Virus record (IMG/VR): IMGVR_UViG_3300037475_000199
Location: 1 to 64,000 of that record
Length of the DNA: 64,000 nucleotides
Source of the DNA: a virus
Strand: one strand, 5' to 3'
Shown: piece by piece, positions 6,788 to 59,658 of the stretch
Numbering within the stretch: the first letter of the stretch is position 1
How the letters are laid out: each line of letters starts with the position of its first letter
The notes under the pieces: model-generated
What the model was told of the DNA's origin: nothing
Database searches by the model: none
What the model saw: only the letters and a program-made list of their open reading frames with translations
Position numbers and translations under genes: made by a program

Positions 6788-7229
6788 TATTAAGAAAGAA
6801 TTAGTTATGATTGAAAAAATGTCAGATTTAAATCTAGATAAATTAGATCCTAAGGCTGAAGATTATTTAGATCAATTAGATAATTTGGTAAAAGAAAGTT
6901 TAGGAGTTTCATTCTCAGAATTAAAAGCTCCTATTATTTCTTATGTTGCCAGTCATTCTGAAGAATTGTCTTTGCAATTTCCTAATATTGCACCATATGG
7001 AGATTATTCTAAGTTAATTGAAGATAATGATGGTATGTCAGAATTTTTAAAAAAACTAGATCAACCAACTGATTGGAAGATTGCAGTTTTAGAAGAAGAT
7101 AAAAAATATGGCTTACTGAAATTTGGTTTCATTTGTACATCAGTTGATGATGGTGATTCGTTAGAAGGTTTTACTTATGTAACTATGTCTGGCAAGATTA
7201 AACACTCTTTTGCACAATATATTGGATGA
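6777..7229 (+). CDS. hypothetical acidic protein
   Basis: ORF only. Confidence 0.35.
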   Translation: MFNNIKKELVMIEKMSDLNLDKLDPKAEDYLDQLDNLVKESLGVSFSELKAPIISYVASHSEELSLQFPNIAPYGDYSKLIEDNDGMSEFLKKLDQPTDWKIAVLEEDKKYGLLKFGFICTSVDDGDSLEGFTYVTMSGKIKHSFAQYIG

Positions 7230-7510
7230 AAAACCTTACTGATGAAGAAATTGCTGAAGGTTGCGTTATGTCAGCTGATGGTATAAAACGGTGGTATGAT
7301 GAGAATAGACATTATCATCGTCTTGGTGGTCCAGCTATTTTAGGTTTAAATGGAAATCAATTATGGTATAAGCATGGCAGACGTCATTGTTTATGTGGTC
7401 CTGCTGTTGATGTAGATTGGAATAAAGAGTGGTGGGTTGAAGGCGAAAAGATAGAATGTTCTTCTCAAGAAGAGTTTGAACAAATTTTAAAGTTAAAAGC
7501 ATTTTGGTAA
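7226..7510 (+). CDS. MORN-repeat (MORN_2/YwqK-like) protein with LKLKAFW tail
   Basis: Repeats of the W[YW]..NG..HR..GPA type. C-terminus CSSQEEFEQILKLKAFW. Confidence 0.55.
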   Translation: MKNLTDEEIAEGCVMSADGIKRWYDENRHYHRLGGPAILGLNGNQLWYKHGRRHCLCGPAVDVDWNKEWWVEGEKIECSSQEEFEQILKLKAFW

Positions 7511-7514: not shown

Positions 7515-8069
7515 ATGGCAAATGATCTTAAAACTACGATAATTAATTTATATGGTGGTCCTGGAGTTGGTAAGTCTACTTCTGCAGCATATCTTTATTA
7601 TTTACTTAAAATTAATGGCGTAAATGCTGAGTTGGTTAGAGAGTATGTTAAGGATTGGGTTTGGGAACAAAGATCAATTGGACCTTATAATCAAATTTAT
7701 TTCTTAGGCAAACAAATTCATAAAGAGAGTCTTTTATATGGTAAAGTTAATTATATAGTGACAGATGCTCCAATCATGATGAATGTTTATTATGCTTATT
7801 TGTATTGCAAAAAAGAATTGGCAGATGGAATAAGGTGTGCTGCAGAAGCATTTTATAATCAATGCAAGAATGATAATTATAATCACATTCATGTAATGTT
7901 AAAGAGGTCGCATGCATATAACCCTAATGGCAGATATCAATCAGAGGAAGAAGCTCTTCAAATTGATACTGGCGTTAGAAAGTTATTATCTGATTTAGAT
8001 ATTCCTTATATAGAGTGTAATAGTGATGAAAATAGTTTGGCAGAATTGTTAGTGAAATTAAAGCCATGA
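7515..8069 (+). CDS. P-loop NTPase/kinase (NadR-RNK- or polynucleotide-kinase-like)
   Basis: Walker A motif GGPGVGKST near the N-terminus. About 180 aa, the size of a small nucleoside/nucleotide or polynucleotide kinase domain. Confidence 0.45.
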   Translation: MANDLKTTIINLYGGPGVGKSTSAAYLYYLLKINGVNAELVREYVKDWVWEQRSIGPYNQIYFLGKQIHKESLLYGKVNYIVTDAPIMMNVYYAYLYCKKELADGIRCAAEAFYNQCKNDNYNHIHVMLKRSHAYNPNGRYQSEEEALQIDTGVRKLLSDLDIPYIECNSDENSLAELLVKLKP

Positions 8070-25097: not shown

Positions 25098-26006
25098 ATG
25101 AATACGGCAGAACTAATTAAACAATTGCGTGAATTTACCCAAGCTGGGATGAAGGATTGTATTGATGCTTTAAAAGAATCTGGAAATGATTTAGAAAAAG
25201 CCATTGATATTATTAAAGTCAAAGGAAAAAACATTGTTTCTGGTCGTTCTGGTAGAATAGCATCAGAAGGTTTAGTGGTAATAAGATCATTACCATATAC
25301 AAATGCTATTGCTATGTTGGAAGTAAATTGTCAAACTGATTTCGTAGCTCGCAGCGAACAATTTCAATCATTAGCTAATATAGCTATGCAAGGCTTAGTT
25401 GTTGCAGTAACTAACAATCAAACATGGGATGGTAAAGACAATATAACTACTGCTGCTATTGAAAATGTAACTTCATCTACCAAAGAAAATATTGTTGTTC
25501 GTCGATGGTGGGTAGAAGAAGTAATTGATCCAACAGCCAAAGTATTTCATTATCTTCATAATGGAGATCAATTGGGAGTTATTCTTACTTTGCAAGCTCC
25601 TTCTGTTGAGGCGGCAAGCGACCCAAGATTTATTGCTCTTGGAAATGATTTAGCTATGCAAGTAGCCGCAATGAGTCCAGTAGCAATTTCAGCCGAGCAT
25701 GTATTGCCCGAGGTTAAAGAAAGGCAGCAAGCTATCTTTGAAACTCAATTAAAAGAAGCCAATAAACCAGAAACTGCCTGGGCAAAGATTTTAACTGGCA
25801 AGTTTAATAAGTGGTATTCTGAATCCTGTTTATTAGAACAGGAATCTGTGTTACATCCAAAATCTTCTGTTAAAGATGTTATTGCTTTAGTCTCTAAGCA
25901 GATTGGTGGAGATATTACTGTAGCTAATATGATTAGATGTCAAGTTGGTGAAGGTATAGTAAAAGAAAAAATTGGTTTAGCTGATGAAGTTGCAAAGTTA
26001 ATGTAA
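25098..26006 (+). CDS. tsf: translation elongation factor Ts (EF-Ts)
   Basis: N-terminal UBA-like LIKQLREFTQAGMKDCIDAL. Internal LEVNCQTDFVA is identical to the E. coli EF-Ts core motif. C-terminal RCQVGEGIVKEK compares with RFEVGEGIEK. Confidence 0.75.
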   Translation: MNTAELIKQLREFTQAGMKDCIDALKESGNDLEKAIDIIKVKGKNIVSGRSGRIASEGLVVIRSLPYTNAIAMLEVNCQTDFVARSEQFQSLANIAMQGLVVAVTNNQTWDGKDNITTAAIENVTSSTKENIVVRRWWVEEVIDPTAKVFHYLHNGDQLGVILTLQAPSVEAASDPRFIALGNDLAMQVAAMSPVAISAEHVLPEVKERQQAIFETQLKEANKPETAWAKILTGKFNKWYSESCLLEQESVLHPKSSVKDVIALVSKQIGGDITVANMIRCQVGEGIVKEKIGLADEVAKLM

Positions 26007-29357: not shown

Positions 29358-29380
29358 TATAGTTGATGCAAGGAGTTTCA

Positions 29381-29665
29381 ATGAATATTAAACCAATTAG
29401 AGATTTAGTTGTTGTGACAAAAGAAGAAGGCGATAAAGTTTCCAGTGGAGGCATCCATTTAGTGGCAAGTGTAGATAAAGCTGCTGTAGGAACTGTTTTA
29501 GCTGTTGGATCAGGTTATGTTGCTGAAAATGGAACAATTGTTCCTTTAGAGGTTAAGGTTGGAGATCGAGTATCATTTAATAGACATGGTGTTCAAGAAG
29601 CTAGTGTTAATGGAGAAACTGTTTTGTTAGTTAGAGAAGATAGTCTTCTTTGTGTTATTAGTTAA
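29381..29665 (+). CDS. groES: co-chaperonin GroES (Hsp10)
   Basis: MNIKPIRDLVVV...GGIHL...GTVLAVGSG...VKVGDRVSF aligns along its whole length with bacterial GroES. ATG 29381 follows the AAGGAG Shine-Dalgarno. Confidence 0.7.
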   Translation: MNIKPIRDLVVVTKEEGDKVSSGGIHLVASVDKAAVGTVLAVGSGYVAENGTIVPLEVKVGDRVSFNRHGVQEASVNGETVLLVREDSLLCVIS

Positions 29666-33411: not shown

Positions 33412-33425
33412 TTTATCTGTCGCTC

Positions 33426-33453
33426 TTGACAGTAATTTTAAAAAATGTATACT
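33426..33453 (+). promoter_or_regulatory. sigma70-like promoter (TTGACA-16-TATACT)
   Basis: Consensus hexamers upstream of natV/nadV. Confidence 0.45.
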
Positions 33454-33494: not shown

Positions 33495-33576
33495 TTAAAC
33501 ATATGTTTGAATCTGTTATATAGGTTCATGTTCCCAGAGAGGGAACTTTATAATTTAGACAACATGGAGAATGTTA

Positions 33577-34590
33577 ATGAAAAATTTTGAATTTTGTGTA
33601 TTTATTGGTCAATTTAGTCCATTCCATAATGGTCAATCTGCTATTCTTCAAGAAGCTTTAAATCAAGCAGAAACAGTTATTGTTGTCCTTGGTTCAGCTA
33701 AAAAGGCAAGAAACATTGAAGTTTCATGGAATGTCGAGCAACGCATTGAGATGATTAAGTCAACTCTTTCTGTCGAAGATCAGGTTCGTATTAAATTTGT
33801 TCCATTACGAGATCACATTTATAGTGATACAATTTGGGTAACTGAATTATTAGAAAAAATGACTCCCATTTTAAATGGATCAAAGAATGTTTCTTTGGTT
33901 TGTAGAGAAAAGTATAATAAAGAATATCTTAAATTGTTCCCGCAATGGGAATTAATCCCAGTTAAAACTACTGAGCCGCATCATGATGCGGAAGATATTA
34001 GACATCGTTATTTTACATATGATACATCTTATTCTCGTTTCGTTCACGAAAATGTAGCTAAGATGATGAAAGAATTTCAAGACACTCCAATCTTTCAAAC
34101 CTTAAAAAGTGACTTTGATTATGTCAAGAAATATAAGGCAGCATGGGAAGGCGCCCCATTTAAACCAATCTTTGTTACAGTAGATGCTGTAATTGTTAAA
34201 TCTGGACACGTACTTTTAGTGAAGCGTAAGGGTAATCCTGGTAAAGGGCAAATGGCATTACCAGGTGGATTTTTAGATCAAGAAGAGCTAATTGAAGATG
34301 CTGTTTTAAGAGAAGTAAAAGAAGAGACTGCTATTAAAATGTCTAAAGATGAACTTCGAGCCTGCATTACATATTCTGAAGTTTTTGATGCCAAAAATCG
34401 TTCATTGCGTGGGAGAACAATTACTCACGCATTTTTAATTGATTTAGGTTCCGGAACCCTACCAAAAGTAAAAGGTTCTGATGATGCAGAAAAAGCTTTT
34501 TGGCTTCCTTTGAACGAAGTCAAGGACCGTGAAGATGAATTTTTTGAAGATCATTTTCACATTATTAGTTCATTCACAAACAAACTATAA
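33577..34590 (+). CDS. natV: bifunctional NMN adenylyltransferase / Nudix hydrolase (NatV/NadM-Nudix type)
   Basis: N-terminal GQFSPFHNGQ is the nucleotidyltransferase (H/T)xGH-like motif. Nudix box GGFLDQEELIEDAVLREVKEETA. ATG 33577 after GGAGA. Confidence 0.6.
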   Translation: MKNFEFCVFIGQFSPFHNGQSAILQEALNQAETVIVVLGSAKKARNIEVSWNVEQRIEMIKSTLSVEDQVRIKFVPLRDHIYSDTIWVTELLEKMTPILNGSKNVSLVCREKYNKEYLKLFPQWELIPVKTTEPHHDAEDIRHRYFTYDTSYSRFVHENVAKMMKEFQDTPIFQTLKSDFDYVKKYKAAWEGAPFKPIFVTVDAVIVKSGHVLLVKRKGNPGKGQMALPGGFLDQEELIEDAVLREVKEETAIKMSKDELRACITYSEVFDAKNRSLRGRTITHAFLIDLGSGTLPKVKGSDDAEKAFWLPLNEVKDREDEFFEDHFHIISSFTNKL

Positions 34591-34633
34591 TCTTTTCAGA
34601 GAGAAAAGAAGTTAACAATACGGAGAGTACGAA

Positions 34634-36085
34634 ATGAGAACAGTAATCGCAAGAAAAGAAGACTTAGAACATAGCAACGTTACCGACACTGATAGTTACA
34701 AGTTTAGCCATTTTATTTTATATAAGAAGGCTGGCGTAACTAGAATGTTTAGTTATCTAGAGTCTCGTGGTGGTGAATTTGATGTTTCTACTATTTCAGC
34801 CCTACAAGTAGCATTACATAGATACATTGCAAAAGGATTTAAGAGAAAGGACATTGATCGTGCAGAAAAGCTTGCAGCTAAACATGGCGTCCCTTTCAAT
34901 CGTCCAGGATTTGAAGCCATGTATAACAAATATAATGGTAAGTTTCCAGTTAGAATTAGATCTATTCCTGAAGGTATGATAGTTCCAGTTTCAACTGCAC
35001 TATTAACTATTGAGTGTTGTGACGAAGATTGTTTTTGGATTGTCAATTGGCTAGAGACTTTATTATCTAGAATTTGGTATCCTTCTACTATTGCAATTGC
35101 AAGTCGTTCAGTCAAGAAACTTTGGAAGCACTTCTTAGATATGACTTCCGATAATACTGATCTCGAAATTGGATTTAAGCATCATGATTTCGGATCTAGA
35201 GGAGTAACCTGCTTTGAGCAAGCCGAATTGGGCGGTATGGCTCACTTGTTGAGCTTCTTTGGTTCTGATACTTTAGCGGGTGTTGAGCTTGCCAATTACT
35301 ACTATGATTGTGATATGTCAGGATTCTCGATTTGTGCTACTGAACATTCTACCATGACTATTTTTGGTCGTGCTGGTGAACGTCAAGCACTTATTGATTG
35401 GATTACTGAAACATTGGTTAATGTTCCAAATATTCCTGGTGTACCTAAAGTGTCTGCTTGTGTTGGTGACAGCTACAATATCTATGATTTTACTACACTA
35501 GTAAGTCGTGATGATGAGGTAAGAAACTTAATTGCTAATTCAGGGGGCACTTTAGTAGTAAGACCAGATAGCGGTAAACCATCTGAAGTTCTTCCTAAAA
35601 TATTGGAATTGTTTGAGCAAAACTTGCCATCAGGATCTATTACTGTTAATAGTAAGGGATACAAAGTTCTACCTTCATATTTGAGACTTATTTGGGGTGA
35701 TGGCATTAACCGTCGTTCAATGAAAGATATTCTTCAATTAGTAGTTGATCTTGGTTGGAGTGCATCTAATATTGCGTTAGGTTCTGGTGGCGGTTTATTG
35801 CAAGATGTTAATCGTGATACACAGAAGTTTGCTTTTAAGTGTTCGTTTGCTGAAGCAAAAGGCGTCTCAATTGATGTTCTTAAAGATCCAATCACTGATC
35901 CTGGAAAGAAATCAAAAGCGGGTCGCCTTGACACTATTAAGCTTCCAGATGGTGAAATTAAAACAGTCTCCATTGGAGTAAATGAAGAATGTCATCCTCT
36001 TAGCATTATGAATACTGTTTTTGAAATGGGAGATATTACTTATCACACTACGTTCGCTGAATGTAGAGACAGAATGGCGCTATGA
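34634..36085 (+). CDS. nadV: nicotinamide phosphoribosyltransferase (NAMPT/NadV)
   Basis: DTDSYKFSHF near the N-terminus matches the NAMPT DSYK motif. About 480 aa, the size of NadV. Confidence 0.65.
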   Translation: MRTVIARKEDLEHSNVTDTDSYKFSHFILYKKAGVTRMFSYLESRGGEFDVSTISALQVALHRYIAKGFKRKDIDRAEKLAAKHGVPFNRPGFEAMYNKYNGKFPVRIRSIPEGMIVPVSTALLTIECCDEDCFWIVNWLETLLSRIWYPSTIAIASRSVKKLWKHFLDMTSDNTDLEIGFKHHDFGSRGVTCFEQAELGGMAHLLSFFGSDTLAGVELANYYYDCDMSGFSICATEHSTMTIFGRAGERQALIDWITETLVNVPNIPGVPKVSACVGDSYNIYDFTTLVSRDDEVRNLIANSGGTLVVRPDSGKPSEVLPKILELFEQNLPSGSITVNSKGYKVLPSYLRLIWGDGINRRSMKDILQLVVDLGWSASNIALGSGGGLLQDVNRDTQKFAFKCSFAEAKGVSIDVLKDPITDPGKKSKAGRLDTIKLPDGEIKTVSIGVNEECHPLSIMNTVFEMGDITYHTTFAECRDRMAL

Positions 36086-36360
36086 AAGTATTAAAGGCAC
36101 CCGAATTAGATAGTTGGTCAACAGAAGTTACATGTAAATGTACGGCTCTTCTTGAAATTGTTATTAGTGACATTTCTTCTCAATGTCATGAAGATAATGA
36201 TAGGTTTGCTGGAAGTATATATTATACATTTAATGTAAAGTGTCCAATCTGTAAAGACAGCATACCTATTCTTGAAAATAAAATGACTCCTGCTGTTAAG
36301 GCTCATTTAGAACATACAGCTAAAAGACCATATATAAGCTCTGGTCCCTGGGATAGATGA
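36082..36360 (+). CDS. small Zn-ribbon protein
   Basis: CKC...C and CPICKD Cys pairs. ATGA overlap. Confidence 0.35.
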   Translation: MKVLKAPELDSWSTEVTCKCTALLEIVISDISSQCHEDNDRFAGSIYYTFNVKCPICKDSIPILENKMTPAVKAHLEHTAKRPYISSGPWDR

Positions 36361-36977
36361 TTAATGCTGAAACAATAATTAAGACGTTTGGTTTAAATGC
36401 ATCAAACGTCTTAACCATTTTCCCTTACGGAAGTCAAGTTTACAAAACAGCTAATGAAAAATCAGACCATGATTTTATTGTTGTTTTTAAAGACGGAACA
36501 GTATCAGATGAATTTGCTATTACTAGAGACAATTTATCTATTCATTCCTATAATGATTCATCATTTCAAGATTTGTTAACCAGGCACAAAATAGCTGCAC
36601 TGGAATGTTATTTTTTACCCTCGGAATATTTATTATTAGAGAATAAAAAATACAAATTTTCCCTCCATATAGACATGTTAAGATCTACAATTAGCGAAAA
36701 ATCATCGCATTCTTTTGTGAAAGCTAAGAAAAAATTTGAAGTGGAAAAAGATCGCGATATTTATATTGCTAAAAAATCTTTATTTCATTCATTAAGAATT
36801 ATTGACTTTGGAACTCAAATAGCTGTTCATAAAAGAATTATTGATTATACATCCAGCAATCATTTATGGGAAGATATTTACACTGATCCTAATGAAGGTT
36901 GGGTTTCATATAAAGAAAAGTATCAGCCAATATTTAATTCTATGATGACTGAATTTAGAAAGGTAGCTCCTAAATAA
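36357..36977 (+). CDS. minimal Pol-beta-superfamily nucleotidyltransferase
   Basis: FPYGSQVYKTANEKSDHDFIVV matches the G[SG]-x9-13-DxD NTase signature. Confidence 0.45.
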   Translation: MINAETIIKTFGLNASNVLTIFPYGSQVYKTANEKSDHDFIVVFKDGTVSDEFAITRDNLSIHSYNDSSFQDLLTRHKIAALECYFLPSEYLLLENKKYKFSLHIDMLRSTISEKSSHSFVKAKKKFEVEKDRDIYIAKKSLFHSLRIIDFGTQIAVHKRIIDYTSSNHLWEDIYTDPNEGWVSYKEKYQPIFNSMMTEFRKVAPK

Positions 36978-37420
36978 TGGGCAACATAGCTTTTATTACA
37001 ACTAAAAAGCATATTAGGTCTTATAATATGTTTTCCTTGCTTCAAAAAATTAATGAATCAAAATTTGATGGAAAGCTAAATATTGTGGACGATATAAGTG
37101 CTTGGAGCATAAACTATCAAAATAATTGGGATAGTATAAATTACTATATTCGTAGTCCTAGAAAAATAGGTGCCAAACACCCTCATAATAATTGGATGCC
37201 TTATGTTTTTTCTGTTTTTCAAAATGAATTAGGCTATATGACGGATGGAAAATTAAGTGATGAATGCTGTAATGAATTTTGGTTACCAGAAAAAGATAAA
37301 TGGGAATCATATAAAGAATATAGATATGAGATGAATAGTTGGATGGAAGACGAAAATTCTCGAACATTAAGAACCATAGAAGATTTGCGGGATGTTCCTC
37401 CAGATATGGCAGGATATTAA
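36977..37420 (+). CDS. hypothetical protein
   Basis: ORF only. Confidence 0.4.
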   Translation: MGNIAFITTKKHIRSYNMFSLLQKINESKFDGKLNIVDDISAWSINYQNNWDSINYYIRSPRKIGAKHPHNNWMPYVFSVFQNELGYMTDGKLSDECCNEFWLPEKDKWESYKEYRYEMNSWMEDENSRTLRTIEDLRDVPPDMAGY

Positions 37421-37687
37421 ATGCGTGGTTGGACTGGCTTAGTTGGAAAAATAGACGGAGCTCATTTTTATTATGTAAATGGACTTTTGCATAGAGAAGA
37501 TGGTCCAGCCATAATAGAAGATAATGGAGATAAGTTTTGGATGCAAAATCATATGCTTCACAGATTAGATGGTCCTGCATCAGAATTTGCTGATGGTGGT
37601 AAAGAATGGTTTATTTGGGATGAAAAGATTCCGTGCTCATCTCAAGAAGAATTTGAAAGAGTTCTTAAGTTAAGAACATTTTGGTAA
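37421..37687 (+). CDS. MORN-repeat protein with KLRTFW tail
   Basis: YVNGLLHREDGPA and MQNHMLHRLDGPA repeats. C-terminus CSSQEEFERVLKLRTFW. Confidence 0.55.
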   Translation: MRGWTGLVGKIDGAHFYYVNGLLHREDGPAIIEDNGDKFWMQNHMLHRLDGPASEFADGGKEWFIWDEKIPCSSQEEFERVLKLRTFW

Positions 37688-37690
37688 CAA

Positions 37691-37960
37691 ATGAAAAACT
37701 CTTATAAAATGAAAGATGGAATTAATATTAGAGATGATGGCGCTATTTGTTATGTTAAAAATAGAAAATATCACAGAGAAGATGGACCGGCTATAATTTT
37801 AGAAGGACAATATAGATGTTGGCTTCAAAATGATGTATATTACCGTCTTGATGGACCAGCCGTGGAAGATGATAATGGTTATAAAGAATGGCATGTTGAT
37901 GATAAAGTATTCTTTACAGAAGAAGAGTATAGAATGTGGAAAATTAAAACTTTTAGTTAA
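37691..37960 (+). CDS. MORN-repeat protein with KIKTFS tail
   Basis: NRKYHREDGPA and VYYRLDGPA repeats. Confidence 0.5.
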   Translation: MKNSYKMKDGINIRDDGAICYVKNRKYHREDGPAIILEGQYRCWLQNDVYYRLDGPAVEDDNGYKEWHVDDKVFFTEEEYRMWKIKTFS

Positions 37961-37970
37961 GGATTAAAAT

Positions 37971-38885
37971 ATGTGTAATGTACTCGTAGGCACAGCTGTT
38001 GGTGATGCTTTAGGTGTTCCATTTGAAACTTTTTTGATAAATAATCCTCTTCTTTTAGATTGGGATGGAACAACTTATCTTGGAAGTAAATATCATGGTT
38101 TAGAACCAGGTCAATACTCAGATGACACTCAACTATCTATTTTGGTTGCTAAATCATTAATATTAAATTCTGGATTTAATCCAGACGATTTAGCTGCAAG
38201 ATATCAAGATTGGTTTTTTTCTGGCGTTGCACGAGGTTATGGTAAAACAACAAAGTTAGCTATGGAAGCTCTTAAAAGTGGTAAACATTGGAATGAATCT
38301 GGGATTGCCGGCTCTTTAGGTAATGGAACGGCTATGCGTGCAGCTCCATTTGGAGTTTACTTTAGAAATGATTTTAAACAATTAATTGCTGCAGTAAAAA
38401 TAGATTCAGCAATTACGCATGTTTCAGAAGATGCTGAAGCTGGAGCTATTGCTATTGCATTAACAGCAGCTTATGCCGTTAATCGTAACACTGAAAATCT
38501 TTTAGACAAAATTTGTGAAAATTTACCAGACTGTAAAGTTAAAAAAACAATTTCTAGTTTGGATGCATTAATTAACGCAGATAATATTACTCCTCCACAA
38601 GCTTTAAGAGTATTGGGGACAAAGGCTAATGTACAAGAAACTGTGCCCGCAGCATTATATTGTTTTCTGAAATTTGATAATTATCACGATGCTGTGCTTG
38701 CTGCAATTAAAGCTGGTGGTGATACCGACACTACTGCCGCAATAGTTGGAGCTTTATTTGGAGCCAGAGATGGAATCAAAAAGATAGATAGAAAATTTTA
38801 TTCGGTAGAAGATTTTGATAAATTAATAGAGTTAGATAGCCAGCTTTATAACAGATCTAATTCATTATTTTTTCCTAGAAACTAA
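37971..38885 (+). CDS. ADP-ribosylglycohydrolase (ARH/DraG family)
   Basis: N-terminal VLVGTAVGDALGVPFE matches the ARH GdAlG...E motif. C-terminal AGGDTDTTAAIVGALFGA is the metal-binding D-T-D region. Confidence 0.6.
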   Translation: MCNVLVGTAVGDALGVPFETFLINNPLLLDWDGTTYLGSKYHGLEPGQYSDDTQLSILVAKSLILNSGFNPDDLAARYQDWFFSGVARGYGKTTKLAMEALKSGKHWNESGIAGSLGNGTAMRAAPFGVYFRNDFKQLIAAVKIDSAITHVSEDAEAGAIAIALTAAYAVNRNTENLLDKICENLPDCKVKKTISSLDALINADNITPPQALRVLGTKANVQETVPAALYCFLKFDNYHDAVLAAIKAGGDTDTTAAIVGALFGARDGIKKIDRKFYSVEDFDKLIELDSQLYNRSNSLFFPRN

Positions 38886-38914: not shown

Positions 38915-40414
38915 ATGTATAAGAAATATCCGCCTAAAAAACCAGATAATTCATATCTTGTTAAAGTAAATGTTAAACATAATTGGTCAGACTATCAAAA
39001 AGCTATTTTTAAAAGTATAGCCAAAGATACAGGACATTTAATAGTAGAAGCTTATGCTGGTAGTTCAAAAACCACTTCAGCCATTGAAAGCTTTAAATAT
39101 GTGCCAAAAGGTAAAAAAACTTTAGCATTAGCATTTAATAAAATAATTCAAGAAGAACTAAGATCTCGTAGTCCCTCTTATATTGAAACTTTTACTTTTC
39201 ATAGTTTAGGATATAGGGCTATTAAACAACGTTTTGGTAATGTTGAGTTAAATGATCATAAAGTATTTGATATTGTTTCTGAAACTTTAGATAAAAAAAC
39301 AAATTACGATCTTATAAATAATATTTGTGATACTGTTGCTTATTGCAAATATACACTTTCAGATACGCCTAAGCAAATTGAAGATTTAATTCTTAATTTT
39401 GGAATTGATACTTGTGAAATGGATGACGATAAATTTATTAAATTAGTTATTAATACTTTAGGCAAAAGTAAATCTATAACTAATAAAATAGATTTTAATG
39501 ATATGTGTTGGTTGCCGTTTGTATATAATTTACCTTTAGGTCAGTATGACTATGTTTATGTAGATGAAGCACAAGATTTAAATAAATCTCAGTTAGTAAT
39601 GGCTAAAAAAGCCAGTAAAACTAATTCTGGTAGAATAATTGTTATTATGGATCCTAATCAAGCGCTTTATTCTTGGCGCGGCGCCGATAGTACAGTAGTT
39701 GATTCTATTAAAAAAGATGAGACAACTAAATCATTACAATTACCAATATCTTATCGTTGTCCTCGATCAGTTATTGATTTGGCTAAAAAATGGGTGCCAG
39801 ATATTACTTGCCCAGAAACAGCAATAGATGGTGAAGTGTCTGATATTACCACAGACAAAATGTATGACATTGTAAAGCCTGGTTCCTTTATTTTATCAAG
39901 AACTAATGCCCCAATGATTAAAATATGTATGCTTTTAATTAAGAGAGGCATTAAAGCTAACATTCGTGGCAGAGATGTTGGAAAACAACTCAACTACTTA
40001 ATAAAGAAATCTAAAAAGAAACAAATGGCTGCTTTCTTAAAATGGTTAGAATGCTGGAAAGATGAAGAAGTTGAAAAGTTGATATCTAAAAAAATAAATA
40101 CAGATAATGTATTAGATAGATATGAATGTTTAGTGTCTTTGTGTGAAGAACACAAGACATTAGAAGAAGTTTCTGAAAAGATAGATCATTTATTTGATGA
40201 TACTGATGAAAAAAATATAGTTATTCTATCTTCTGTTCATAGAGCAAAAGGATTAGAAAGAGATAATGTCTTCATTTTAAGATGGACTTTTAGGCAATGG
40301 TTAGATGATAAGTTAGAGTTTATTGAAAAACCAAATGAAGAGGCAAATATTGCTTATGTTGCTGCTACTAGAGCAAAGAAATCACTATATATTGTTAGAA
40401 AAAGTGTAGTTTGA
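38915..40414 (+). CDS. SF1 UvrD/PcrA-like DNA helicase
   Basis: Walker A AYAGSSKTT. DEAQD box in YVYVDEAQDL. Motif VI-like VHRAKGLERDNVFIL. Confidence 0.55.
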   Translation: MYKKYPPKKPDNSYLVKVNVKHNWSDYQKAIFKSIAKDTGHLIVEAYAGSSKTTSAIESFKYVPKGKKTLALAFNKIIQEELRSRSPSYIETFTFHSLGYRAIKQRFGNVELNDHKVFDIVSETLDKKTNYDLINNICDTVAYCKYTLSDTPKQIEDLILNFGIDTCEMDDDKFIKLVINTLGKSKSITNKIDFNDMCWLPFVYNLPLGQYDYVYVDEAQDLNKSQLVMAKKASKTNSGRIIVIMDPNQALYSWRGADSTVVDSIKKDETTKSLQLPISYRCPRSVIDLAKKWVPDITCPETAIDGEVSDITTDKMYDIVKPGSFILSRTNAPMIKICMLLIKRGIKANIRGRDVGKQLNYLIKKSKKKQMAAFLKWLECWKDEEVEKLISKKINTDNVLDRYECLVSLCEEHKTLEEVSEKIDHLFDDTDEKNIVILSSVHRAKGLERDNVFILRWTFRQWLDDKLEFIEKPNEEANIAYVAATRAKKSLYIVRKSVV

Positions 40415-40444: not shown

Positions 40445-40473
40445 CATTTTTAAATGATTAGGATAGTGAAATG
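40445..40473 (+). promoter_or_regulatory. sigma70-like promoter (TTGACT-17-TAGGAT) within an ATGTG...CACAT inverted repeat
   Basis: Hexamers at the correct spacing. AAATGTGTGGTCTTGACTGCACATTT forms an inverted repeat over the -35. Confidence 0.35.
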
Positions 40474-40929
40474 GAAAACCACGAAACACCAGAAGCTATT
40501 AAAGCAAGGGCTGAACAAGCGGACCCTCTTGTTATGTATTTAATAGTAAGAGAAGAGTTAGAAATGAGTATTGGTAAAGCTTGTGCTCAATGCGCTCATG
40601 CTAGCCAAATGATCACTTTAAAATATTTGCCATTATATATTAAATATTTTGAAAAAGATATTGAGAATTCTGGTTGGATTGATAAAAGTTCATATGAAAG
40701 TTACTTAAGTTTTGTTGAATGGCTTGCCGGTTCTTTTCGTAAAGTGGTTCTTAAATCAGATGAAAAAGAATGGGTTAAAATCAAAAACGAGTTACCCAAC
40801 AACTCAATAATCGTTGTTGATGCGGGTTTAACCGAGCTTCAACCAAATACAGAAACAGTAATTGGTCTTTGGCCAATGAAAAGAAGTGAACGACCCAAAA
40901 TAATCAAAAAATTGCAAGTTTTAACATGA
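40471..40929 (+). CDS. peptidyl-tRNA hydrolase, PTH2 family
   Basis: PLVMYLIVREELEMSIGKACAQCAHAS aligns with the PTH2 core ([25 protein letters not shown]). Confidence 0.6.
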   Translation: MENHETPEAIKARAEQADPLVMYLIVREELEMSIGKACAQCAHASQMITLKYLPLYIKYFEKDIENSGWIDKSSYESYLSFVEWLAGSFRKVVLKSDEKEWVKIKNELPNNSIIVVDAGLTELQPNTETVIGLWPMKRSERPKIIKKLQVLT

Positions 40930-44087: not shown

Positions 44088-44278
44088 ATAAAAAATATTT
44101 TGTAGTTTATTATGTTTGGGACACTTTTCGAGGGTGGAATGGTCCAATGAATATTCTTATAGATAAACATCCCTTAAAGTGGCTTAAAGAAGATAAGATT
44201 GCGTTATCAAAAGAACATAGTTGGGATGACATTTCTATTTCTTGGTGGCAATTATTAGAGGAAGATTATGACAAATAA
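44084..44278 (+). CDS. small hypothetical protein
   Basis: ATGA overlap. Confidence 0.3.
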   Translation: MNKKYFVVYYVWDTFRGWNGPMNILIDKHPLKWLKEDKIALSKEHSWDDISISWWQLLEEDYDK

Positions 44279-45029
44279 AGATAGTTTAGGCGACAGAATA
44301 AAGGCTTATGAGGATTGTTATAGAGTACAATTACCTCAAAGAATGCCAGTTATTCTTAGGGTTGATGGCAAATCATTTCATAATTATACCAAAGGTTGTA
44401 AAAGACCTGTTGACGAGAACCTTGTCAATTGTATGAATGAGACAGCAAAATATCTTTGTGAAAATATTCAGGGAGCAAAATTAGGATATGTACAATCAGA
44501 TGAAATATCTATATTATTAACTAACTATGAAACAATAAATACGCAATCATGGTTCGATAATAATTTGGTTAAAATGGTTAGCATATCTTCGGCTTTAGCT
44601 TCAGCTAAATTTACCTCTATTTCTGACACTATTTTTGGTAAGCCTAAAATGGCAGTTTTTGACAGTCGAGCTTTTGTAGTTCCAGTTAATGATGTTTGTA
44701 ATTATTTTTTATGGAGACAACAAGATTGTACCAGAAATTCAGTTCAAATGTTAGCTAGAAGTCTTTATTCTCATAAAGAATGTAATAATAAGAACAATTC
44801 TCAATTGCAAGAGATGTGCTTTCAAAAAGGTATTAATTGGAATGATTGCCCTACATCTCAAAAACGTGGTAGATGTATAATTAAACAATACAAGGTTAAA
44901 ACTGGAACTAATATTAAAACTGGCGAACAATTTTCTGCAGAACGTTCCAGTTGGGAAGTTGATAACGAAATTCCAATTTTCTCATTAGATAGAAATTATA
45001 TTAATAAACTAATAATTCTTAAAGACTAA
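44268..45029 (+). CDS. tRNA(His) guanylyltransferase Thg1-like protein (TLP)
   Basis: VILRVDGKSFHNYT compares with the Thg1 rIDGkkFH motif. KRPVDEN compares with the PxDE motif. YVQSDEISILL compares with GESDEYSFI. Confidence 0.6.
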   Translation: MTNKDSLGDRIKAYEDCYRVQLPQRMPVILRVDGKSFHNYTKGCKRPVDENLVNCMNETAKYLCENIQGAKLGYVQSDEISILLTNYETINTQSWFDNNLVKMVSISSALASAKFTSISDTIFGKPKMAVFDSRAFVVPVNDVCNYFLWRQQDCTRNSVQMLARSLYSHKECNNKNNSQLQEMCFQKGINWNDCPTSQKRGRCIIKQYKVKTGTNIKTGEQFSAERSSWEVDNEIPIFSLDRNYINKLIILKD

Positions 45030-54184: not shown

Positions 54185-55690
54185 ATGGCAGAGAAATTAG
54201 TTGCTTATTCGGCAGGCGAAGAACCGTCTTTTCCTGGAGATTATGATGTAGTAAAAAGGACTACATTAAATTTTACAGACATTATTAACAACAACAATAA
54301 ATATTATAATTTAGAAGTTCAAGTTGCTAAGAATGGCAGTTCAAGAATTTTTACTCAGTATGGTCGAGTAGGCGGAACGGCAGCCAAAGAATATCGAGTA
54401 GCAGCTAATCAGTCTCATGCTGAAACTGAAGCCGAAAAAATTATCAAGTCCAAAACTAAAAAGGGCTATGTTGAAGTTAAATTGGTAAAAGCTGATATTG
54501 GGTCCGAAGCAGGCAAGGCTAAAGTTGATACTTCAGCTTCTAGCGTATCAGTTGATACACTTAAAAAGATGGGTGTTAAAGTTCAGGAAGCAGAAACCAG
54601 TAAATTACATCCTGAAATTGGAGATTTAGTTAGAACTTGGTTCGGCGTTACACAGGAATTTATTGAATTAAATCTTGACACTAAAAAGTGTCCATTAGGT
54701 CAATTATCGATTGATCAAATTGATAAAGCAAAAGAAATATTAGATGAAGCTCGTTTAATTATTCATGCATCTAAACCAGATGTATTAGAATTAAATAAAT
54801 TAACTAACTCTTATTATAGTAACATTCCTCATAACTTTGGTTATGGTAGAATTAATGCCGATGTACTTCGTTTAGACAACGATGATAAGGTAAATAAAGC
54901 TTTTGATATATTAGATGTTTTTGGTTCAGCTAAAAACGTTCAAAGTGTTATTTCAAAGAAATCGGCTGTAGACTCTCAGTATGCCACTTTAAATGCTGAT
55001 TTAAATTTTATTGATCCAAAAGATCCTATTTGGAAATGGATTGACACTATGTTGCATGAGACTAAAGCTAGCAATCATCATTTCTTAGGCAAATTAAAAA
55101 CTCATAAAATTTATAAAGTAAATCGTAAAGGTGAAGAACAGTATTTTCTTAAGAATGCAGAGAAGATTGCTAAAGAATGTGGAAAGCATGATCCTTCTCC
55201 AGTTTACTCTAAATTAGTTAAATCTCGCCCAGATGTATCAAAAGAGCTAAGAGATTTGTATGCAAGAGCTAACGTTTCTCCTGGTTGGCATGGAACTCGT
55301 AGAGCTAATATGATTGGCATTACTACTAAAGGTCTTTTAATTAGACCTTCAGGTGTAGTTCATGCTGGTTCAATGTATGGTGACGGTGTTTACTGGGCTA
55401 CTAATAGTACTAAGAGCATCAATTACTGTGATGTTCGTGGCTCATATTGGGCTGCTGGTACAAATAAAACGGCTTATTTATTCTTAGGTGATGTTGCTTT
55501 TGGTAATTATAAATATGCTAATGGCTCACAATATTATAATAGAAAGAATATTTCGCCAGCACATTCTGTTTTTGCTCAAGGCGGGAAGAGCGGAGTATTG
55601 AATGACGAAATTATTACTTATACTCCATCGGGTCCAGAGCAACAACATTGTTTAAGATATATTATTGAATTCGAAACACAAGCAAAATGA
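54185..55690 (+). CDS. PARP-like ADP-ribosyltransferase (WGR domain plus PARP catalytic domain; H-Y-D variant)
   Basis: WGR-like YYNLEVQ...QYGRVGG. Catalytic WHGTRRANMIGI...GSMYGDGVYWA carries the H-G-T motif and Tyr. YLFLGDVAFGNY aligns with PARP1 LLLGEVALG, with Asp in place of the catalytic Glu. Confidence 0.6.
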   Translation: MAEKLVAYSAGEEPSFPGDYDVVKRTTLNFTDIINNNNKYYNLEVQVAKNGSSRIFTQYGRVGGTAAKEYRVAANQSHAETEAEKIIKSKTKKGYVEVKLVKADIGSEAGKAKVDTSASSVSVDTLKKMGVKVQEAETSKLHPEIGDLVRTWFGVTQEFIELNLDTKKCPLGQLSIDQIDKAKEILDEARLIIHASKPDVLELNKLTNSYYSNIPHNFGYGRINADVLRLDNDDKVNKAFDILDVFGSAKNVQSVISKKSAVDSQYATLNADLNFIDPKDPIWKWIDTMLHETKASNHHFLGKLKTHKIYKVNRKGEEQYFLKNAEKIAKECGKHDPSPVYSKLVKSRPDVSKELRDLYARANVSPGWHGTRRANMIGITTKGLLIRPSGVVHAGSMYGDGVYWATNSTKSINYCDVRGSYWAAGTNKTAYLFLGDVAFGNYKYANGSQYYNRKNISPAHSVFAQGGKSGVLNDEIITYTPSGPEQQHCLRYIIEFETQAK

Positions 55691-56949
55691 AAATTGGATT
55701 ATTAACATTTCCCAGATTAACCAATAATTTTGCTGAGGGTAGACCAACTCTACTTGCACAAAAGCTGGAACCATCAGTATTATTTTTATCTCCATCTTAT
55801 GGAGAATTAGTCTTTATAGAAGACAACGTTCCTAGAGATGATATTGATTTATACTTATGTTCTGTATATACTCGTGGTTTAAGTGAGTTTATTACGTTTT
55901 CAAAGGCAGTAGGTAGAGACAAAGTAATTGCCGGAGGATATCATCCAACAGCAATGCCAGAAGAAATGCTGCCTTACGCTCATAAAGTAGTTACTGGTTA
56001 TTGTGACAACATCGATCAAATCATTGATGGTCCCACTGGAGTATCTAAAGGTTCTTTTGGTTTTACTAAGATGCGAAGAGATCTTGTTGATATGAAGTCA
56101 ATGACTCAAATTTATCCGGATATTTATCCAGATGATATTAGTGGTTCAATGGTTTCTTCTGTCGGATGTCCTTATGATTGTGACTTTTGCTCAACTCCAT
56201 CTATGTCTGGCAGAAAAATGCGAACAGCCAGCTTAGATTATGTAGCAGAAGAAATTGAAGACCTATTAAAGCATAATGTTACTACTGTTTTTATTAGAGA
56301 TGAAAGTTTTGCAACTCATCCAATGATGGCTGAAGTAGCTCCTTTATTTAAAGATAAATTTAAAGTTTTATATTCATTTGGAACCTCTGGTGTCTTTGCT
56401 AAAAAGCCAGAATTACTTAAAGTCTTAAAAGAGAGCGGCTGGCATTCTCTTAATATTGGATTAGAAGACGTTGGGGTAAAATATAGAAAAAATCTTAACT
56501 TAAAAATGGGTGTTGAAAATATTCATCGTAATGGTCTTCAACACGTAATGTCATTCATTGTAAATGATGATGGAAAATCTTTAGAAGAAGCTAAAGCAAA
56601 CTATAATTCTTTATATGATGCCTTTATAGATCTTAAACCATTGCAAGTTTGCGCGAACTTTTTGATGCCTTTTCCAGGAACGCAATTATGGCAATCATAT
56701 AAAGATCGTATGTCAGAAAAAGATTTTGATAATTTTGATTCAAAAACACCTATTTTTACTAAAGGTCCGATGCATGAATGGCACAAGAGGATGTTAGTTG
56801 CTGTACAACTCAAGTATTATTTAAGTGATTCTTATAATAAGAATGTAAGAAACTTTAATTGTGGAGATACGCTTAATCTTAGGATGAATGAGTTGCAAAA
56901 AGAATTTGGTTTAGATAATTTGTCGTGGGATAAACTATTAGAAATATGA
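55687..56949 (+). CDS. B12-binding-domain radical-SAM enzyme
   Basis: CPYDCDFC is the CxxxCxxC motif. N-terminal VIAGGYHPTAMPEEM resembles the class B cobalamin-binding region. ATGA overlap with the PARP gene indicates translational coupling. Confidence 0.55.
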   Translation: MKIGLLTFPRLTNNFAEGRPTLLAQKLEPSVLFLSPSYGELVFIEDNVPRDDIDLYLCSVYTRGLSEFITFSKAVGRDKVIAGGYHPTAMPEEMLPYAHKVVTGYCDNIDQIIDGPTGVSKGSFGFTKMRRDLVDMKSMTQIYPDIYPDDISGSMVSSVGCPYDCDFCSTPSMSGRKMRTASLDYVAEEIEDLLKHNVTTVFIRDESFATHPMMAEVAPLFKDKFKVLYSFGTSGVFAKKPELLKVLKESGWHSLNIGLEDVGVKYRKNLNLKMGVENIHRNGLQHVMSFIVNDDGKSLEEAKANYNSLYDAFIDLKPLQVCANFLMPFPGTQLWQSYKDRMSEKDFDNFDSKTPIFTKGPMHEWHKRMLVAVQLKYYLSDSYNKNVRNFNCGDTLNLRMNELQKEFGLDNLSWDKLLEI

Positions 56950-57626: not shown

Positions 57627-57627
57627 T

Positions 57628-58388: not shown

Positions 58389-58865
58389 ATGATTACTATA
58401 ATTCAGGGAGATTTAATAGAAGCTAAAGAGAAATATTTGATCCACCAAACAAATTGTGTTTCGCATTTCGCGGCAGGTATTGCACAAACTATTTTTTCTA
58501 AATTTCCATATGCTAATGTTTATGCTAATAGAATAGAAGAAGACTTACCTGGACATATAGTTATTTGTGGTAACGGTAAAGATCAAAGATACATTGTTAA
58601 TTTAATGGGTCAGTTCTATCCTGGTGGATATTCTGAATCAGACATTGACAATGAAAAAGCACGACAACAATATTTCCACAAAGGATTACTTAGATTGGCT
58701 AAAATTCCTAATTTAGAGAGTGTTGCTTTTAATTTTAAAATTGGATGCGGAATTGGCGGAGGTAATTGGAATTGGTATAAAGGTACTCTTGAAAACTTTG
58801 CTAATTATATTGATAGTACACAAGGAGCTAAAACTTTTATCTATCAAAGAGAAGGTGACGTTTAA
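58389..58865 (+). CDS. macrodomain (ADP-ribose binding/hydrolase) protein
   Basis: ITIIQGDLIEAKEKYLIHQTNCVSHFAAGIAQ parallels the macro signature GDIT...IVNAAN..L.GGgGV. Confidence 0.55.
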   Translation: MITIIQGDLIEAKEKYLIHQTNCVSHFAAGIAQTIFSKFPYANVYANRIEEDLPGHIVICGNGKDQRYIVNLMGQFYPGGYSESDIDNEKARQQYFHKGLLRLAKIPNLESVAFNFKIGCGIGGGNWNWYKGTLENFANYIDSTQGAKTFIYQREGDV

Positions 58866-59197
58866 TGAAAAACGGATTAATAATTGATGATTATGGTACT
58901 CAAAAATGGTATAAAGAAGATCTTTTACATAAAGAAGACGGTCCTGCCGTAATCTGGAAAAGTGGAGATAAAGAATACCGCATTAATGGACAACTTCACA
59001 GAGAAGATGGTCCTGCTATTGAGTATAATAATTTTCATATGTGGTATTTTAATGATAAACTTCATAGAGTTGAAGGCGCCGCCGTCATTGACATTTTTAA
59101 TGATGAAAAAGAGTATTGGTATAAAGGAAAATCAGTTGAGGACATAGAAACTGACGAGGATTTTAAAAATTTCATCAAATTCAAGGCGTTTTGGTAA
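58865..59197 (+). CDS. MORN-repeat protein with KFKAFW tail
   Basis: LLHKEDGPA and QLHREDGPA repeats. C-terminus DEDFKNFIKFKAFW. Confidence 0.55.
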   Translation: MKNGLIIDDYGTQKWYKEDLLHKEDGPAVIWKSGDKEYRINGQLHREDGPAIEYNNFHMWYFNDKLHRVEGAAVIDIFNDEKEYWYKGKSVEDIETDEDFKNFIKFKAFW

Positions 59198-59199
59198 AC

Positions 59200-59658
59200 A
59201 TGACAATTAAGTTTTATACTTCTGCCGAACCATATGGATATTTAAATAATTTTAAAAAGTCGCCTATGTTTGTGTATGGTCGTTGGTGGAAAAATGTTGA
59301 ATCAGCTTATCAAGCACAAAAGACAATTATTCCAGAAGAATATAATAAAATTTGGTTAGCTAAACATCCAAGAGAAGCAAGAAATTTAGGACAAATAGTT
59401 CATATTAGAAAAGATTGGGATGAAATAAAAGTCTCAGTTATGTATGAATGTGTTTTAGCAAAATTTGTTCAAAATAAAGATTTTAGAAATAGATTGTTTT
59501 CTACTGGTGATGAAGAAATTGCAGAAGATTCTCCAATTGATTCATTTTGGGGATTAGGTCCAAATGGTGACGGATTAAATCATTTGGGTAAAATTCTAAT
59601 GAAAGTTAGAAGTATTTTAAGAACAAATGAATATTATGAATTATTTCAAGGATTATAA
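59200..59658 (+). CDS. NADAR (DUF1768/YbiA-like) domain protein, copy 2
   Basis: FYTSAEPYGYLNNF...VESAYQAQKT...FWGLG...LGKILMKVR matches the NADAR signature. ATG 59200, or TTG 59191. Confidence 0.6.
   Translation: MTIKFYTSAEPYGYLNNFKKSPMFVYGRWWKNVESAYQAQKTIIPEEYNKIWLAKHPREARNLGQIVHIRKDWDEIKVSVMYECVLAKFVQNKDFRNRLFSTGDEEIAEDSPIDSFWGLGPNGDGLNHLGKILMKVRSILRTNEYYELFQGL

What the first reader, a model, noticed from the sequence alone, without database searches (positions are those of the whole stretch)
37421..38885. Two MORN-tail proteins directly upstream of a DraG-like ADP-ribosylglycohydrolase
The ARH N-terminus GTAVGDALGVPFE and the D-T-D metal motif are typical of ADP-ribosyl-Arg/Ser hydrolases.

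MORN-tail proteins also flank the macro/NADAR genes (58865) and the kinase (7226). So the tail family is physically tied to ADP-ribose erasers three times in this window.
Basis: partly seen in the sequence, partly recalled or inferred. Interest (0 to 1): 0.65.

Follow-up and report, generated by a model that had tools for sequence, protein, structure and literature searches.

The report
Phage ADP-ribose hydrolase beside filler genes
A giant-phage contig carries a genuine, apparently active ADP-ribose-removing enzyme, but the two small repeat proteins just upstream belong to a hugely expanded, mobile gene family that lands in many places, so their position next to the enzyme looks like lineage-specific happenstance rather than a partnership.

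Summary
Two small proteins (37421-37687, 37691-37960) sit 3-10 nt apart upstream of an ARH-family hydrolase (37971-38885) that keeps all di-metal ligands. Two paralogs sit at 7226 and 58865.

- Of 24 orthologous ARH loci in related ~450 kb phages, only 4 have the small genes upstream, all from one sub-lineage.
- None of 56 more distant phage ARH loci has them.
- Only 1 of 21 Macro-NADAR loci has the intervening paralog.
- Around 589 family members in 157 viral and cellular loci, no ARH, Macro or NADAR gene was found.
- 149 immediate neighbours of the arrays fall into 103 unrelated Pfam families.

The family has about 39,000 clusters and forms tandem arrays of up to 18 copies. It is a 23-residue 'HREDGPA' beta-hairpin repeat with a C-terminal helix. 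Its fold is only weakly MORN-like, and it matches no Pfam MORN model; long members pass DUF6745.

What is conserved is the backbone: NadM/Nudix-NAMPT-ARH-UvrD-PTH2 and PARP-Macro-NADAR. The small genes fill variable slots between these backbone genes. Verdict: ordinary, low interest.

The parts
37421..37687 (+). rep1: 88-aa small protein with two 23-residue 'H-R-E/L-D-G-P-A' beta-hairpin repeats and a C-terminal helix tail (..QEEFERVLKLRTFW)
   Evidence: ORF. Family profile E=2e-32. 88-aa orthologs in L168 and L169 at E~1e-36. No Pfam MORN hit; DUF6745 at E=0.16 only.
37691..37960 (+). rep2: 89-aa paralog of rep1 (44% identical)
   Evidence: The 72%-identical ortholog P0002 sits directly upstream of an ARH in L002. 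The AF2 model has pLDDT 89.3: seven beta strands and a helix at residues 77-88.
37971..38885 (+). ARH-family ADP-ribosylhydrolase, 304 aa, with an intact di-metal site (E19; S50-D51-D52; D251-T252-D253-T254)
   Evidence: Pfam PF03747 E=2.4e-68. The ligand motifs align to MJ1187, Tri1, T. thermophilus ARH, Lmo0067 and ARH3. E19, D51, D52, D251, T252, D253 and T254 are invariant in 40 orthologs.
7226..7510 (+). rep3: 94-aa paralog with degenerate repeats (GGPA, CGPA)
   Evidence: Family profile E=2.6e-30; alignment.
58865..59197 (+). rep4: 110-aa paralog with three repeats, lying between Macro and NADAR
   Evidence: Family profile E=1e-34. An ortholog in the same slot occurs only in L170, 1 of 21 Macro-NADAR loci.
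58389..58865 (+). Divergent macro-domain protein, conserved backbone gene
   Evidence: Pfam Macro E=5e-4, below cut-off. NCBIfam DarG E=2.7e-5. Weak PDB macro-domain hits. PHROG 335 E=1e-19. Orthologs in 31 IMG/VR loci.
59197..59658 (+). NADAR-domain protein, conserved backbone gene downstream of Macro
   Evidence: Pfam NADAR E=1.1e-33; synteny.
7515..8069 (+). P-loop kinase-like protein (AAA_28); this is 'the kinase' of the finding
   Evidence: Pfam AAA_28 E=3.3e-13. PHROG 2107, annotated 'thymidylate kinase', E=2.6e-15. No PDB sequence hit. Not found next to rep genes in relatives.
33571..36085 (+). NadM-type NMN adenylyltransferase/Nudix (33571-34590) and NAMPT (34634-36085): NAD salvage pair, conserved upstream backbone of the ARH block
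   Evidence: Precomputed Pfam domains; PHROGs; conserved order in relatives.
36357..37420 (+). Pol-beta-type nucleotidyltransferase (36357-36977) and ORF of 147 aa (36977-37420), which border the variable slot upstream of ARH
   Evidence: In relatives, the NTase or the o147 homolog abuts ARH directly (L101, L118, L106, L107).
38915..40414 (+). UvrD-like helicase, conserved backbone gene downstream of ARH
   Evidence: Pfam UvrD-helicase E=3.4e-21; synteny.

Best explanation
The locus joins two unrelated kinds of gene.

(1) The ARH is a catalytically competent, metal-dependent ADP-ribosylhydrolase. It is a conserved backbone gene of a clade of roughly 450 kb phages and always lies in the block NadM/Nudix - NAMPT - ... 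- ARH - UvrD - PTH2. By inference it strips ADP-ribose from macromolecules. These could be host-defence modifications or modifications made by the phage's own PARP or ART enzymes. The released ADP-ribose would then be available to the neighbouring Nudix and NAD-salvage enzymes.

(2) rep1 and rep2 belong to a hyper-expanded, fast-turning-over family of small proteins. Each has 2-5 'HREDGPA' beta-hairpin repeats and a C-terminal helix that often ends in F/L-W. The family fills variable slots between backbone genes all over these genomes, often as long tandem arrays. By inference these are generic protein-binding modules.

Their position next to ARH, and rep4's position between Macro and NADAR, reflect insertions fixed in one sub-lineage, not a dedicated functional coupling.

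Shown: gene identities, ligand conservation, synteny, and the lack of conserved adjacency. Inferred: the ARH substrate and the biochemical role of the rep proteins.
For: ARH identity and ligands.

ARH is widely conserved: more than 120 clusters at 70-83% identity, on contigs up to 472 kb.

Backbone synteny with alternative fillers in the slot upstream of ARH:
- a radical-SAM-like gene in L087/L096 (the same contig) and L100;
- NADAR in L088, L099 and L103;
- o147 in L106 and L107;
- the NTase directly in L101 and L118.

Rep genes near ARH occur in only 4 of 24 orthologous loci and 0 of 56 distant ARH loci. The array's composition differs even among those four.

A rep gene lies between Macro and NADAR in 1 of 21 loci, and in other genomes rep genes turn up in other slots of the same backbone (L177, L190, L198).

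Contig 3300044843_001040 has at least 22 rep ORFs within about 20 kb (L026, L066) but none within 5 kb of its ARH (L114).

Rep-centred view:
- 152 arrays were found, with up to 18 paralogs in 12 kb.
- 149 distinct immediate neighbours fall into 103 Pfam families, none with more than 3 members.
- No ARH, Macro or NADAR profile hit occurs in 816 kb of viral and 545 kb of cellular-genome rep loci.

Family size: 39,208 50%-identity clusters.
Against: - Within the window, 2 of 3 rep loci touch an eraser gene, nominal p about 0.01.
- The rep-ARH and Macro-rep-NADAR arrangements have persisted over about 20-27% amino-acid divergence of the enzymes in the window's sub-lineage (L002, L168, L169, L092, L170), so they are not very recent.
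- The genes are tightly packed and co-directional, hence probably co-transcribed.
- Only 5-6 kb flanks of relatives were examined, not whole genomes.
- The eraser profiles used were built from this clade, so very divergent macro or NADAR genes could be missed.
- No experiment bears on any protein here.
Confidence: 0.74

Rival explanations
1. Lineage-specific adaptor model. In the window's sub-lineage, rep1/rep2 and rep4 have been recruited as targeting or regulatory subunits that bind the neighbouring ARH, Macro or NADAR enzymes and direct them to particular ADP-ribosylated substrates.
For: - Adjacency is kept in L002, L168, L169, L092 and L170.
- Gaps are 3-10 nt on the same strand.
- The nominal within-window p is about 0.01.
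- MORN-type sheets are known protein-binding surfaces (established knowledge; the fold resemblance here is weak).
Against: - Absent from 20 of 24 ARH ortholog loci and 20 of 21 Macro-NADAR loci, although the enzymes there are 59-77% identical to the window's ARH (50-59% for the Macro) and presumably work the same way.
- Which rep paralogs precede ARH differs between the closest relatives: rep2 is absent from L168 and L169, and other paralogs are added.
- No eraser enrichment appears around 589 family members elsewhere.
Confidence: 0.1
2. Pure coincidence of dense packing. This 64 kb stretch is unusually rich in NAD/ADP-ribose genes and in small accessory genes, so a rep gene next to an eraser carries no information at all, even within the sub-lineage.
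For: - The window holds at least 7 NAD/ADP-ribose genes.
- With this broader target set the permutation p rises to about 0.03.
- Both insertions are shared with one relative contig, giving an effective n of 2.
- The third rep locus adjoins a generic kinase-like gene.
Against: This differs from the best explanation only in degree. Retention of the arrangement across 73-83% identical relatives shows it is at least tolerated and stably inherited.
Confidence: 0.15
3. The rep ORFs are not real genes but spurious ORFs or degenerate repeats.
For: They are short (88-110 aa) and have no Pfam or NCBIfam match above threshold.
Against: - Thousands of homologs exist.
- Orthologs in relatives conserve length and tail.
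- The AF2 model is confident, pLDDT 89.
- BFVD structural matches reach E=2e-6.
Confidence: 0.01

Closest known systems
ARH/DraG superfamily (Pfam PF03747): MJ1187 (PDB 1T5J), human ARH3 (2FOZ), Tri1 (6DRE), DraG (2WOC)
   Same: Full-length match to the family model. The N-terminal GDALGxPxE glutamate, the (S/T)-D-D motif and the D-x-D-T motif all align with the solved enzymes.
   Different: It is not an ortholog of any characterised member.
- DraG equivalog: 89 bits against a cut-off of 337.
- Tri1 equivalog: 94 bits against a cut-off of 490.
The nearest solved structure, MJ1187, has no known function. With the clade profile, ARH3 scores above DraG and Tri1. Arg versus Ser/PAR/O-acetyl specificity therefore cannot be assigned, and 'DraG-like' is no better a label than 'ARH3-like'.
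ARG (ARH) domains of jumbo phages, as surveyed by Iyer et al. 2022 (PMC9503650) and 2021 (PMC7824862)
   Same: A phage-encoded ARH that co-occurs with NadV/NadM NAD salvage, Macro, NADAR and occasionally PARP. Those surveys report ARG in about 5% of jumbo phages and propose that it acts on macromolecular ADP-ribose adducts.
   Different: Here the ARH is a conserved backbone gene of a specific clade of roughly 450 kb phages, in a fixed position between NAMPT and UvrD. Neither paper mentions a MORN-like partner ('MORN' occurs 0 times in each).
MORN repeat proteins (MORN4, TbMORN1, junctophilin; Pfam PF02493/PF07661) and the MORN-repeat expansions of giant viruses
   Same: - 23-residue repeat period.
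- Predicted beta-hairpin repeats forming a sheet.
- MORN proteins are prominent among the weak structural matches.
- Two mimivirid proteins annotated as MORN repeat proteins match in BFVD, at E=7e-5 and 5e-3.
- Like MORN genes in pandoraviruses, the family is a large paralog expansion in a large viral genome (PMC6418002, from its listing; the paper was not read).
   Different: - No Pfam MORN or MORN_2 hit for any window protein up to E=10.
- The signature H-R-x-D-G-P-A is not the MORN consensus.
Pfam DUF6745 (PF20530)
   Same: Several small homologs carry a precomputed DUF6745 hit. Long multi-repeat family members exceed its gathering score through model positions of about 40-95.
   Different: The window proteins themselves are below threshold (E=0.16 for rep1, nothing for the others). 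DUF6745 is a 206-position model, of which only a short segment corresponds to the repeat. No literature on it was found.
Orphan antitoxin-like NADAR/DarG-type erasers of T4-like phages that neutralise DarTG (PMC11825919; Schuller et al. 2023, PMC11543638)
   Same: The window's Macro has DarG as its best NCBIfam and PDB matches, and it lies next to a NADAR gene in a conserved block.
   Different: This concerns the neighbouring 58.4-59.7 kb locus, not the ARH. The DarG matches are weak (E=2.7e-5 and 0.02). No activity has been tested.

Membership tests
ADP-ribosylglycohydrolase (ARH/DraG superfamily, PF03747) | Full-length match to the family model above the curated cut-off | tested here: met
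   231.3 bits against a cut-off of 26.2, covering model positions 2-285 of 287.
ADP-ribosylglycohydrolase (ARH/DraG superfamily, PF03747) | Binuclear metal site ligands: the N-terminal Glu, the (S/T)-D-D motif and the D-x-D-T motif. In human ARH3 these are E41, T76-D77-D78 and D314/D316/T317 (residue numbers from established knowledge). | tested here: met
   E19, S50-D51-D52 and D251-T252-D253-T254 align to the corresponding motifs of MJ1187, Tri1, 2CWC, Lmo0067 and ARH3. All but S50 are invariant in 40 orthologs.
DraG (ADP-ribosyl-[dinitrogen reductase] hydrolase, TIGR02662) / Tri1 (NF041672) equivalogs | Score above the equivalog cut-off | tested here: not met
   DraG 89 bits against 337; Tri1 94 bits against 490. 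No DraT, nitrogenase or T6SS context is present in the window.
MORN repeat (PF02493) / MORN_2 variant (PF07661) | Sequence match to a MORN repeat model | tested here: not met
   No hit for any of the four window proteins up to E=10. There is no NCBIfam MORN or YwqK hit. One long family member reaches MORN_2 at E=0.0036, below the cut-off.
MORN repeat (PF02493) / MORN_2 variant (PF07661) | Repeat period of about 23 residues, each repeat forming a beta-hairpin in an extended antiparallel sheet | tested here: inconclusive
DUF6745 (PF20530) | Score above the gathering cut-off (27 bits) | tested here: inconclusive
   The window proteins score 11.7 bits (rep1) or nothing. Long homologs found with the family profile score 24-62 bits.
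Functionally coupled gene neighbourhood (rep family with ADP-ribose erasers) | Adjacency conserved across divergent relatives | tested here: not met
   4 of 24 orthologous ARH loci, 0 of 56 distant ARH loci and 1 of 21 Macro-NADAR loci.
Functionally coupled gene neighbourhood (rep family with ADP-ribose erasers) | Reciprocal enrichment: eraser genes over-represented next to rep genes elsewhere | tested here: not met
   No ARH, Macro or NADAR hit in 157 rep-centred loci covering 1.36 Mb and 589 rep ORFs. The neighbours fall into 103 Pfam families, none with more than 3 members.
Functionally coupled gene neighbourhood (rep family with ADP-ribose erasers) | Physical interaction of the products | not testable with these tools
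   No multimer prediction or experiment was available.

The most novel reading that the evidence does not exclude
In this one megaphage sub-lineage, members of the expanded HREDGPA-repeat family have been co-opted as substrate-targeting adaptors for ADP-ribose erasers (rep1/rep2 for ARH, rep4 for Macro/NADAR). The family as a whole would then be a library of interchangeable targeting modules for phage enzymes.
Probability: 0.07. Interest if true: 0.6.

Novelty: new member of a known kind. Interest (0 to 1): 0.2.

Why it matters
As posed, the finding would have pointed to a new class of accessory subunits for ADP-ribose erasers in phage-host conflict. The comparative evidence argues against that, so the locus adds little beyond one more phage ARH.

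Two by-products may be worth more.
- A clade of roughly 450 kb phages keeps a fixed arsenal: NAD salvage, ARH, PARP, Macro and NADAR. This makes it a good system for studying phage-side ADP-ribosylation.
- The HREDGPA-repeat small proteins are one of the largest uncharacterised paralog expansions in large phages, with about 39,000 clusters and arrays of up to 18 copies. Their function is unknown.

Tried and rejected
- DNA similarity to the 50,697 INPHARED phage records gave only short patches of 70-79% identity in NadM and one other gene. There is no close cultured relative.
- Pfam, PHROGs and NCBIfam on the four small proteins gave nothing above threshold. MORN membership was therefore rejected at sequence level.
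- I considered that the AAA_28 gene at 7515 might be a nicotinamide riboside kinase, which would make a third NAD link. Pfam gives only the generic AAA_28 family, PHROGs calls it 'thymidylate kinase', and PDB gives no hit, so this is unsupported. The gene is also absent next to rep genes in relatives.
- Single-protein locus searches with ARH and NADAR found only 2 loci each, so alignment-based searches were needed (then 39 and 54).
- Literature searches for 'DUF6745' (0 papers) and for MORN repeat with phage and paralogs (2 papers, neither about phage genes) found nothing relevant.
- The idea that the ORFs are spurious was rejected.
- The promoter and terminator scan of 33-41 kb found no more sites than shuffled sequence and no terminator between rep1 and UvrD, so it says nothing about coupling.

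Full report
**1. What is there**

The window has about 30% G+C, and essentially all genes are on the + strand. It matches a 70.9 kb JGI metagenome contig and an 11.9 kb Logan contig. It has no close relative among 50,697 deposited phage genomes.

The finding's interval holds three tightly packed genes:
- rep1, 37421-37687, 88 aa.
- rep2, 37691-37960, 89 aa.
- an ARH, 37971-38885, 304 aa.

The gaps between them are 3 and 10 nt.

**2. The ARH**

- It matches Pfam ADP_ribosyl_GH over its full length (E=2.4e-68).
- In alignments to the solved structures MJ1187, Tri1, T. thermophilus ARH and Lmo0067, E19, S50-D51-D52 and D251-T252-D253-T254 fall on the conserved Glu, (S/T)DD and DxDT motifs. These motifs build the binuclear metal site.
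- ARH3 aligns over the (S/T)DD and DxDT motifs.
- E19, D51, D52, D251, T252, D253 and T254 are invariant in 40 orthologs.
- It is not an ortholog of DraG or Tri1: it scores 89 and 94 bits against cut-offs of 337 and 490.
- With the clade profile, ARH3 scores better than either.

So the enzyme looks active, but its substrate class cannot be read from the sequence.

**3. The small proteins**

A profile search of all six frames finds exactly four family members in the window: the two above, 7226-7510 and 58865-59197.

All four share 23-residue repeats with the signature H-R-x-D-G-P-A and a C-terminal '..EEF..LKLKxFW' tail. No Pfam MORN or MORN_2 model, and no NCBIfam model, matches them.

Structure:
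- An AF2 model of rep2 is confident (pLDDT 89.3, pTM 0.74). It shows seven beta strands and a terminal helix.
- Foldseek against PDB gives no significant hit. The best E is 0.74, although the top hits are MORN proteins.
- Against predicted viral structures there are significant matches. These are uncharacterised proteins of uncultured Caudovirales, Celeribacter phage P12053L and Agrobacterium phage Atu_ph07, plus mimivirid proteins, two of them annotated as MORN repeat proteins.

Family size and membership:
- The profile finds 39,208 50%-identity clusters, including proteins of up to 2,084 aa.
- Long members pass the Pfam DUF6745 cut-off rather than MORN.

'MORN-like fold' is therefore a fair description, but membership of the MORN family is not established.

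**4. The claimed tie, seen from the ARH side**

The ARH has more than 120 clusters at 70-83% identity, on contigs up to 472 kb. An alignment-based scan of IMG/VR returned 77 ARH loci with 5 kb flanks.

- Among 21 distinct contigs with orthologous ARH (59-76% identity), family members occur within 5 kb in only one, L092. A motif regex on all frames agrees.
- In L092 a LAGLIDADG-type ORF separates the rep pair from the ARH.
- Three short contigs with ARH at 80-83% identity (L002, L168, L169) have one to three rep genes directly upstream. The paralogs differ: rep2 is present only in L002, and other paralogs are added in L168 and L169.
- None of the 56 loci with more distant ARH genes (25-46% identity) has a family member.

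The conserved order is NadM/Nudix - NAMPT - (o92) - (NTase) - [slot] - ARH - [slot] - UvrD - [slot] - PTH2. The slot before the ARH is filled in different genomes by rep genes, a radical-SAM-like gene, NADAR, o147 or nothing.

**5. The Macro/NADAR side**

Thirty-one IMG/VR loci carry the Macro ortholog. Twenty-one of them have both Macro and NADAR in the conserved order o99 - PARP - [slot] - Macro - [slot] - NADAR - o171.

Only L170 has a rep gene between Macro and NADAR. L170 comes from the same 447,763 bp contig as L092.

Elsewhere rep genes appear in other slots of this backbone: L177, L190 and L198. In another relative the whole Macro-rep-NADAR segment is absent between PARP and o171 (L027).

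**6. The rep side**

IMG/VR holds at least 578 matching stretches.

- In the 78 IMG/VR loci, together with six loci fetched earlier (L003-L008), I counted 152 arrays, with up to 18 paralogs in 12 kb.
- Their 149 longest distinct immediate neighbours (of 199) fall into 103 Pfam families. None has more than three members: GIY-YIG, metallophosphoesterase, AAA, UvdE, PhoH, RNA ligase, UvrD, SET and others.
- Profiles of the clade's ARH, Macro and NADAR find nothing in 816 kb of viral rep-centred loci or in 545 kb of rep-centred loci from bacterial and archaeal genomes.
- One contig, 3300044843_001040, has at least 22 rep ORFs close by but none within 5 kb of its ARH.

**7. Chance within the window**

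Random placement of three blocks puts at least two next to an eraser in about 1% of trials. With a broader NAD/ADP-ribose gene set this rises to about 3%. The test is post hoc. Both insertions are inherited together in one lineage, so the effective sample is two events.

**8. Interpretation**

The ARH is an ordinary but well-conserved phage member of the ARH superfamily. It is embedded in an NAD-salvage block, which fits published surveys of NAD/ADP-ribose systems in jumbo phages. Those surveys mention no MORN partner.

The small genes are members of a very large accessory family that occupies variable slots between backbone genes. The arrangement is stable within the window's sub-lineage, so a lineage-specific functional recruitment cannot be excluded. 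I give it about 10%. Nothing beyond adjacency supports it.

The kinase-like neighbour of rep3 is a generic AAA_28 P-loop protein with no demonstrable ADP-ribose link.

**9. Verdict**

The proposed tie between the family and the erasers is not supported. This is a new member of known kinds, of low interest as posed.

Noticed in passing
window 54185-59658; L170-L198: A PARP-like gene (WGR + PARP regulatory + PARP catalytic domains, 54185-55690) lies upstream of Macro and NADAR. The order o99-PARP-[slot]-Macro-[slot]-NADAR-o171 is kept in about 20 related IMG/VR contigs. By eye, the translation shows H-Y-E-like motifs (WHGT, GVYWA, NDEIITY); these were not formally aligned. One phage clade thus carries a writer, three eraser types and NAD salvage.
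   Followed up: partly
window 33571-36085: NadM-type NMNAT/Nudix and NAMPT, an NAD salvage pair, lie upstream of the ARH and are syntenic with it across the clade. A strong sigma70-like promoter (TTGACA-16-TATACT, 33426-33453) overlaps the end of a terminator-like hairpin (33417-33432) just upstream of NadM.
   Followed up: partly
L092 4154-5008; L170 4187-5032: In the 447,763 bp relative, LAGLIDADG-type homing-endonuclease-like ORFs (motifs LGFLYADG and MRGYFDGDG, read by eye) are inserted immediately upstream of the ARH and of the Macro gene.
   Followed up: no
L119-L139 (e.g. L119, L120, L132, L134, L139): Many contigs of the clade carry a second ARH paralog, about 37-46% identical to the window's, some 30 kb from the first. 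The window itself shows only one ARH.
   Followed up: no
L038 2806-11908; L072 86-6614; L025, L035: The HREDGPA-repeat family forms tandem arrays of up to 18 paralogs. It comprises 39,208 50%-identity clusters, including proteins of more than 2,000 aa. Of 340 distinct copies, 41% end in a hydrophobic residue followed by Trp. Its function is unknown.
   Followed up: partly
window 12095-12592: A second NADAR gene (Pfam E=3.3e-49, with a weak hit to T4 Gp30.3) lies far from any rep gene.
   Followed up: no
window 6777-8413; L014, L080, L035: The neighbours of rep3 other than the kinase are better conserved next to rep genes in relatives than the kinase is. The S24-like gene (8066-8413) directly follows rep arrays in L014 and L080, and the o150 homolog precedes rep genes in L035.
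   Followed up: partly
window 608-1439, 17723-18210: Another set of small ORFs shares similar N-termini (MKYFKY../MKYLKINDEKIPSE..) and looks like a separate small paralog family. This was read by eye only.
   Followed up: no
window 40471-40929, 44268-45029, 25098-26006, 29363-29665: Translation- and chaperone-related genes: PTH2 peptidyl-tRNA hydrolase and Thg1 (precomputed Pfam), plus ORFs that look by eye like EF-Ts and GroES (not tested).
   Followed up: no
P0028: One ARH ortholog (77% identical) is deposited as 'MAG: Candidatus Berkiella sp.'. This is probably phage sequence binned into a bacterial MAG, or it may be a hint about the host.
   Followed up: no
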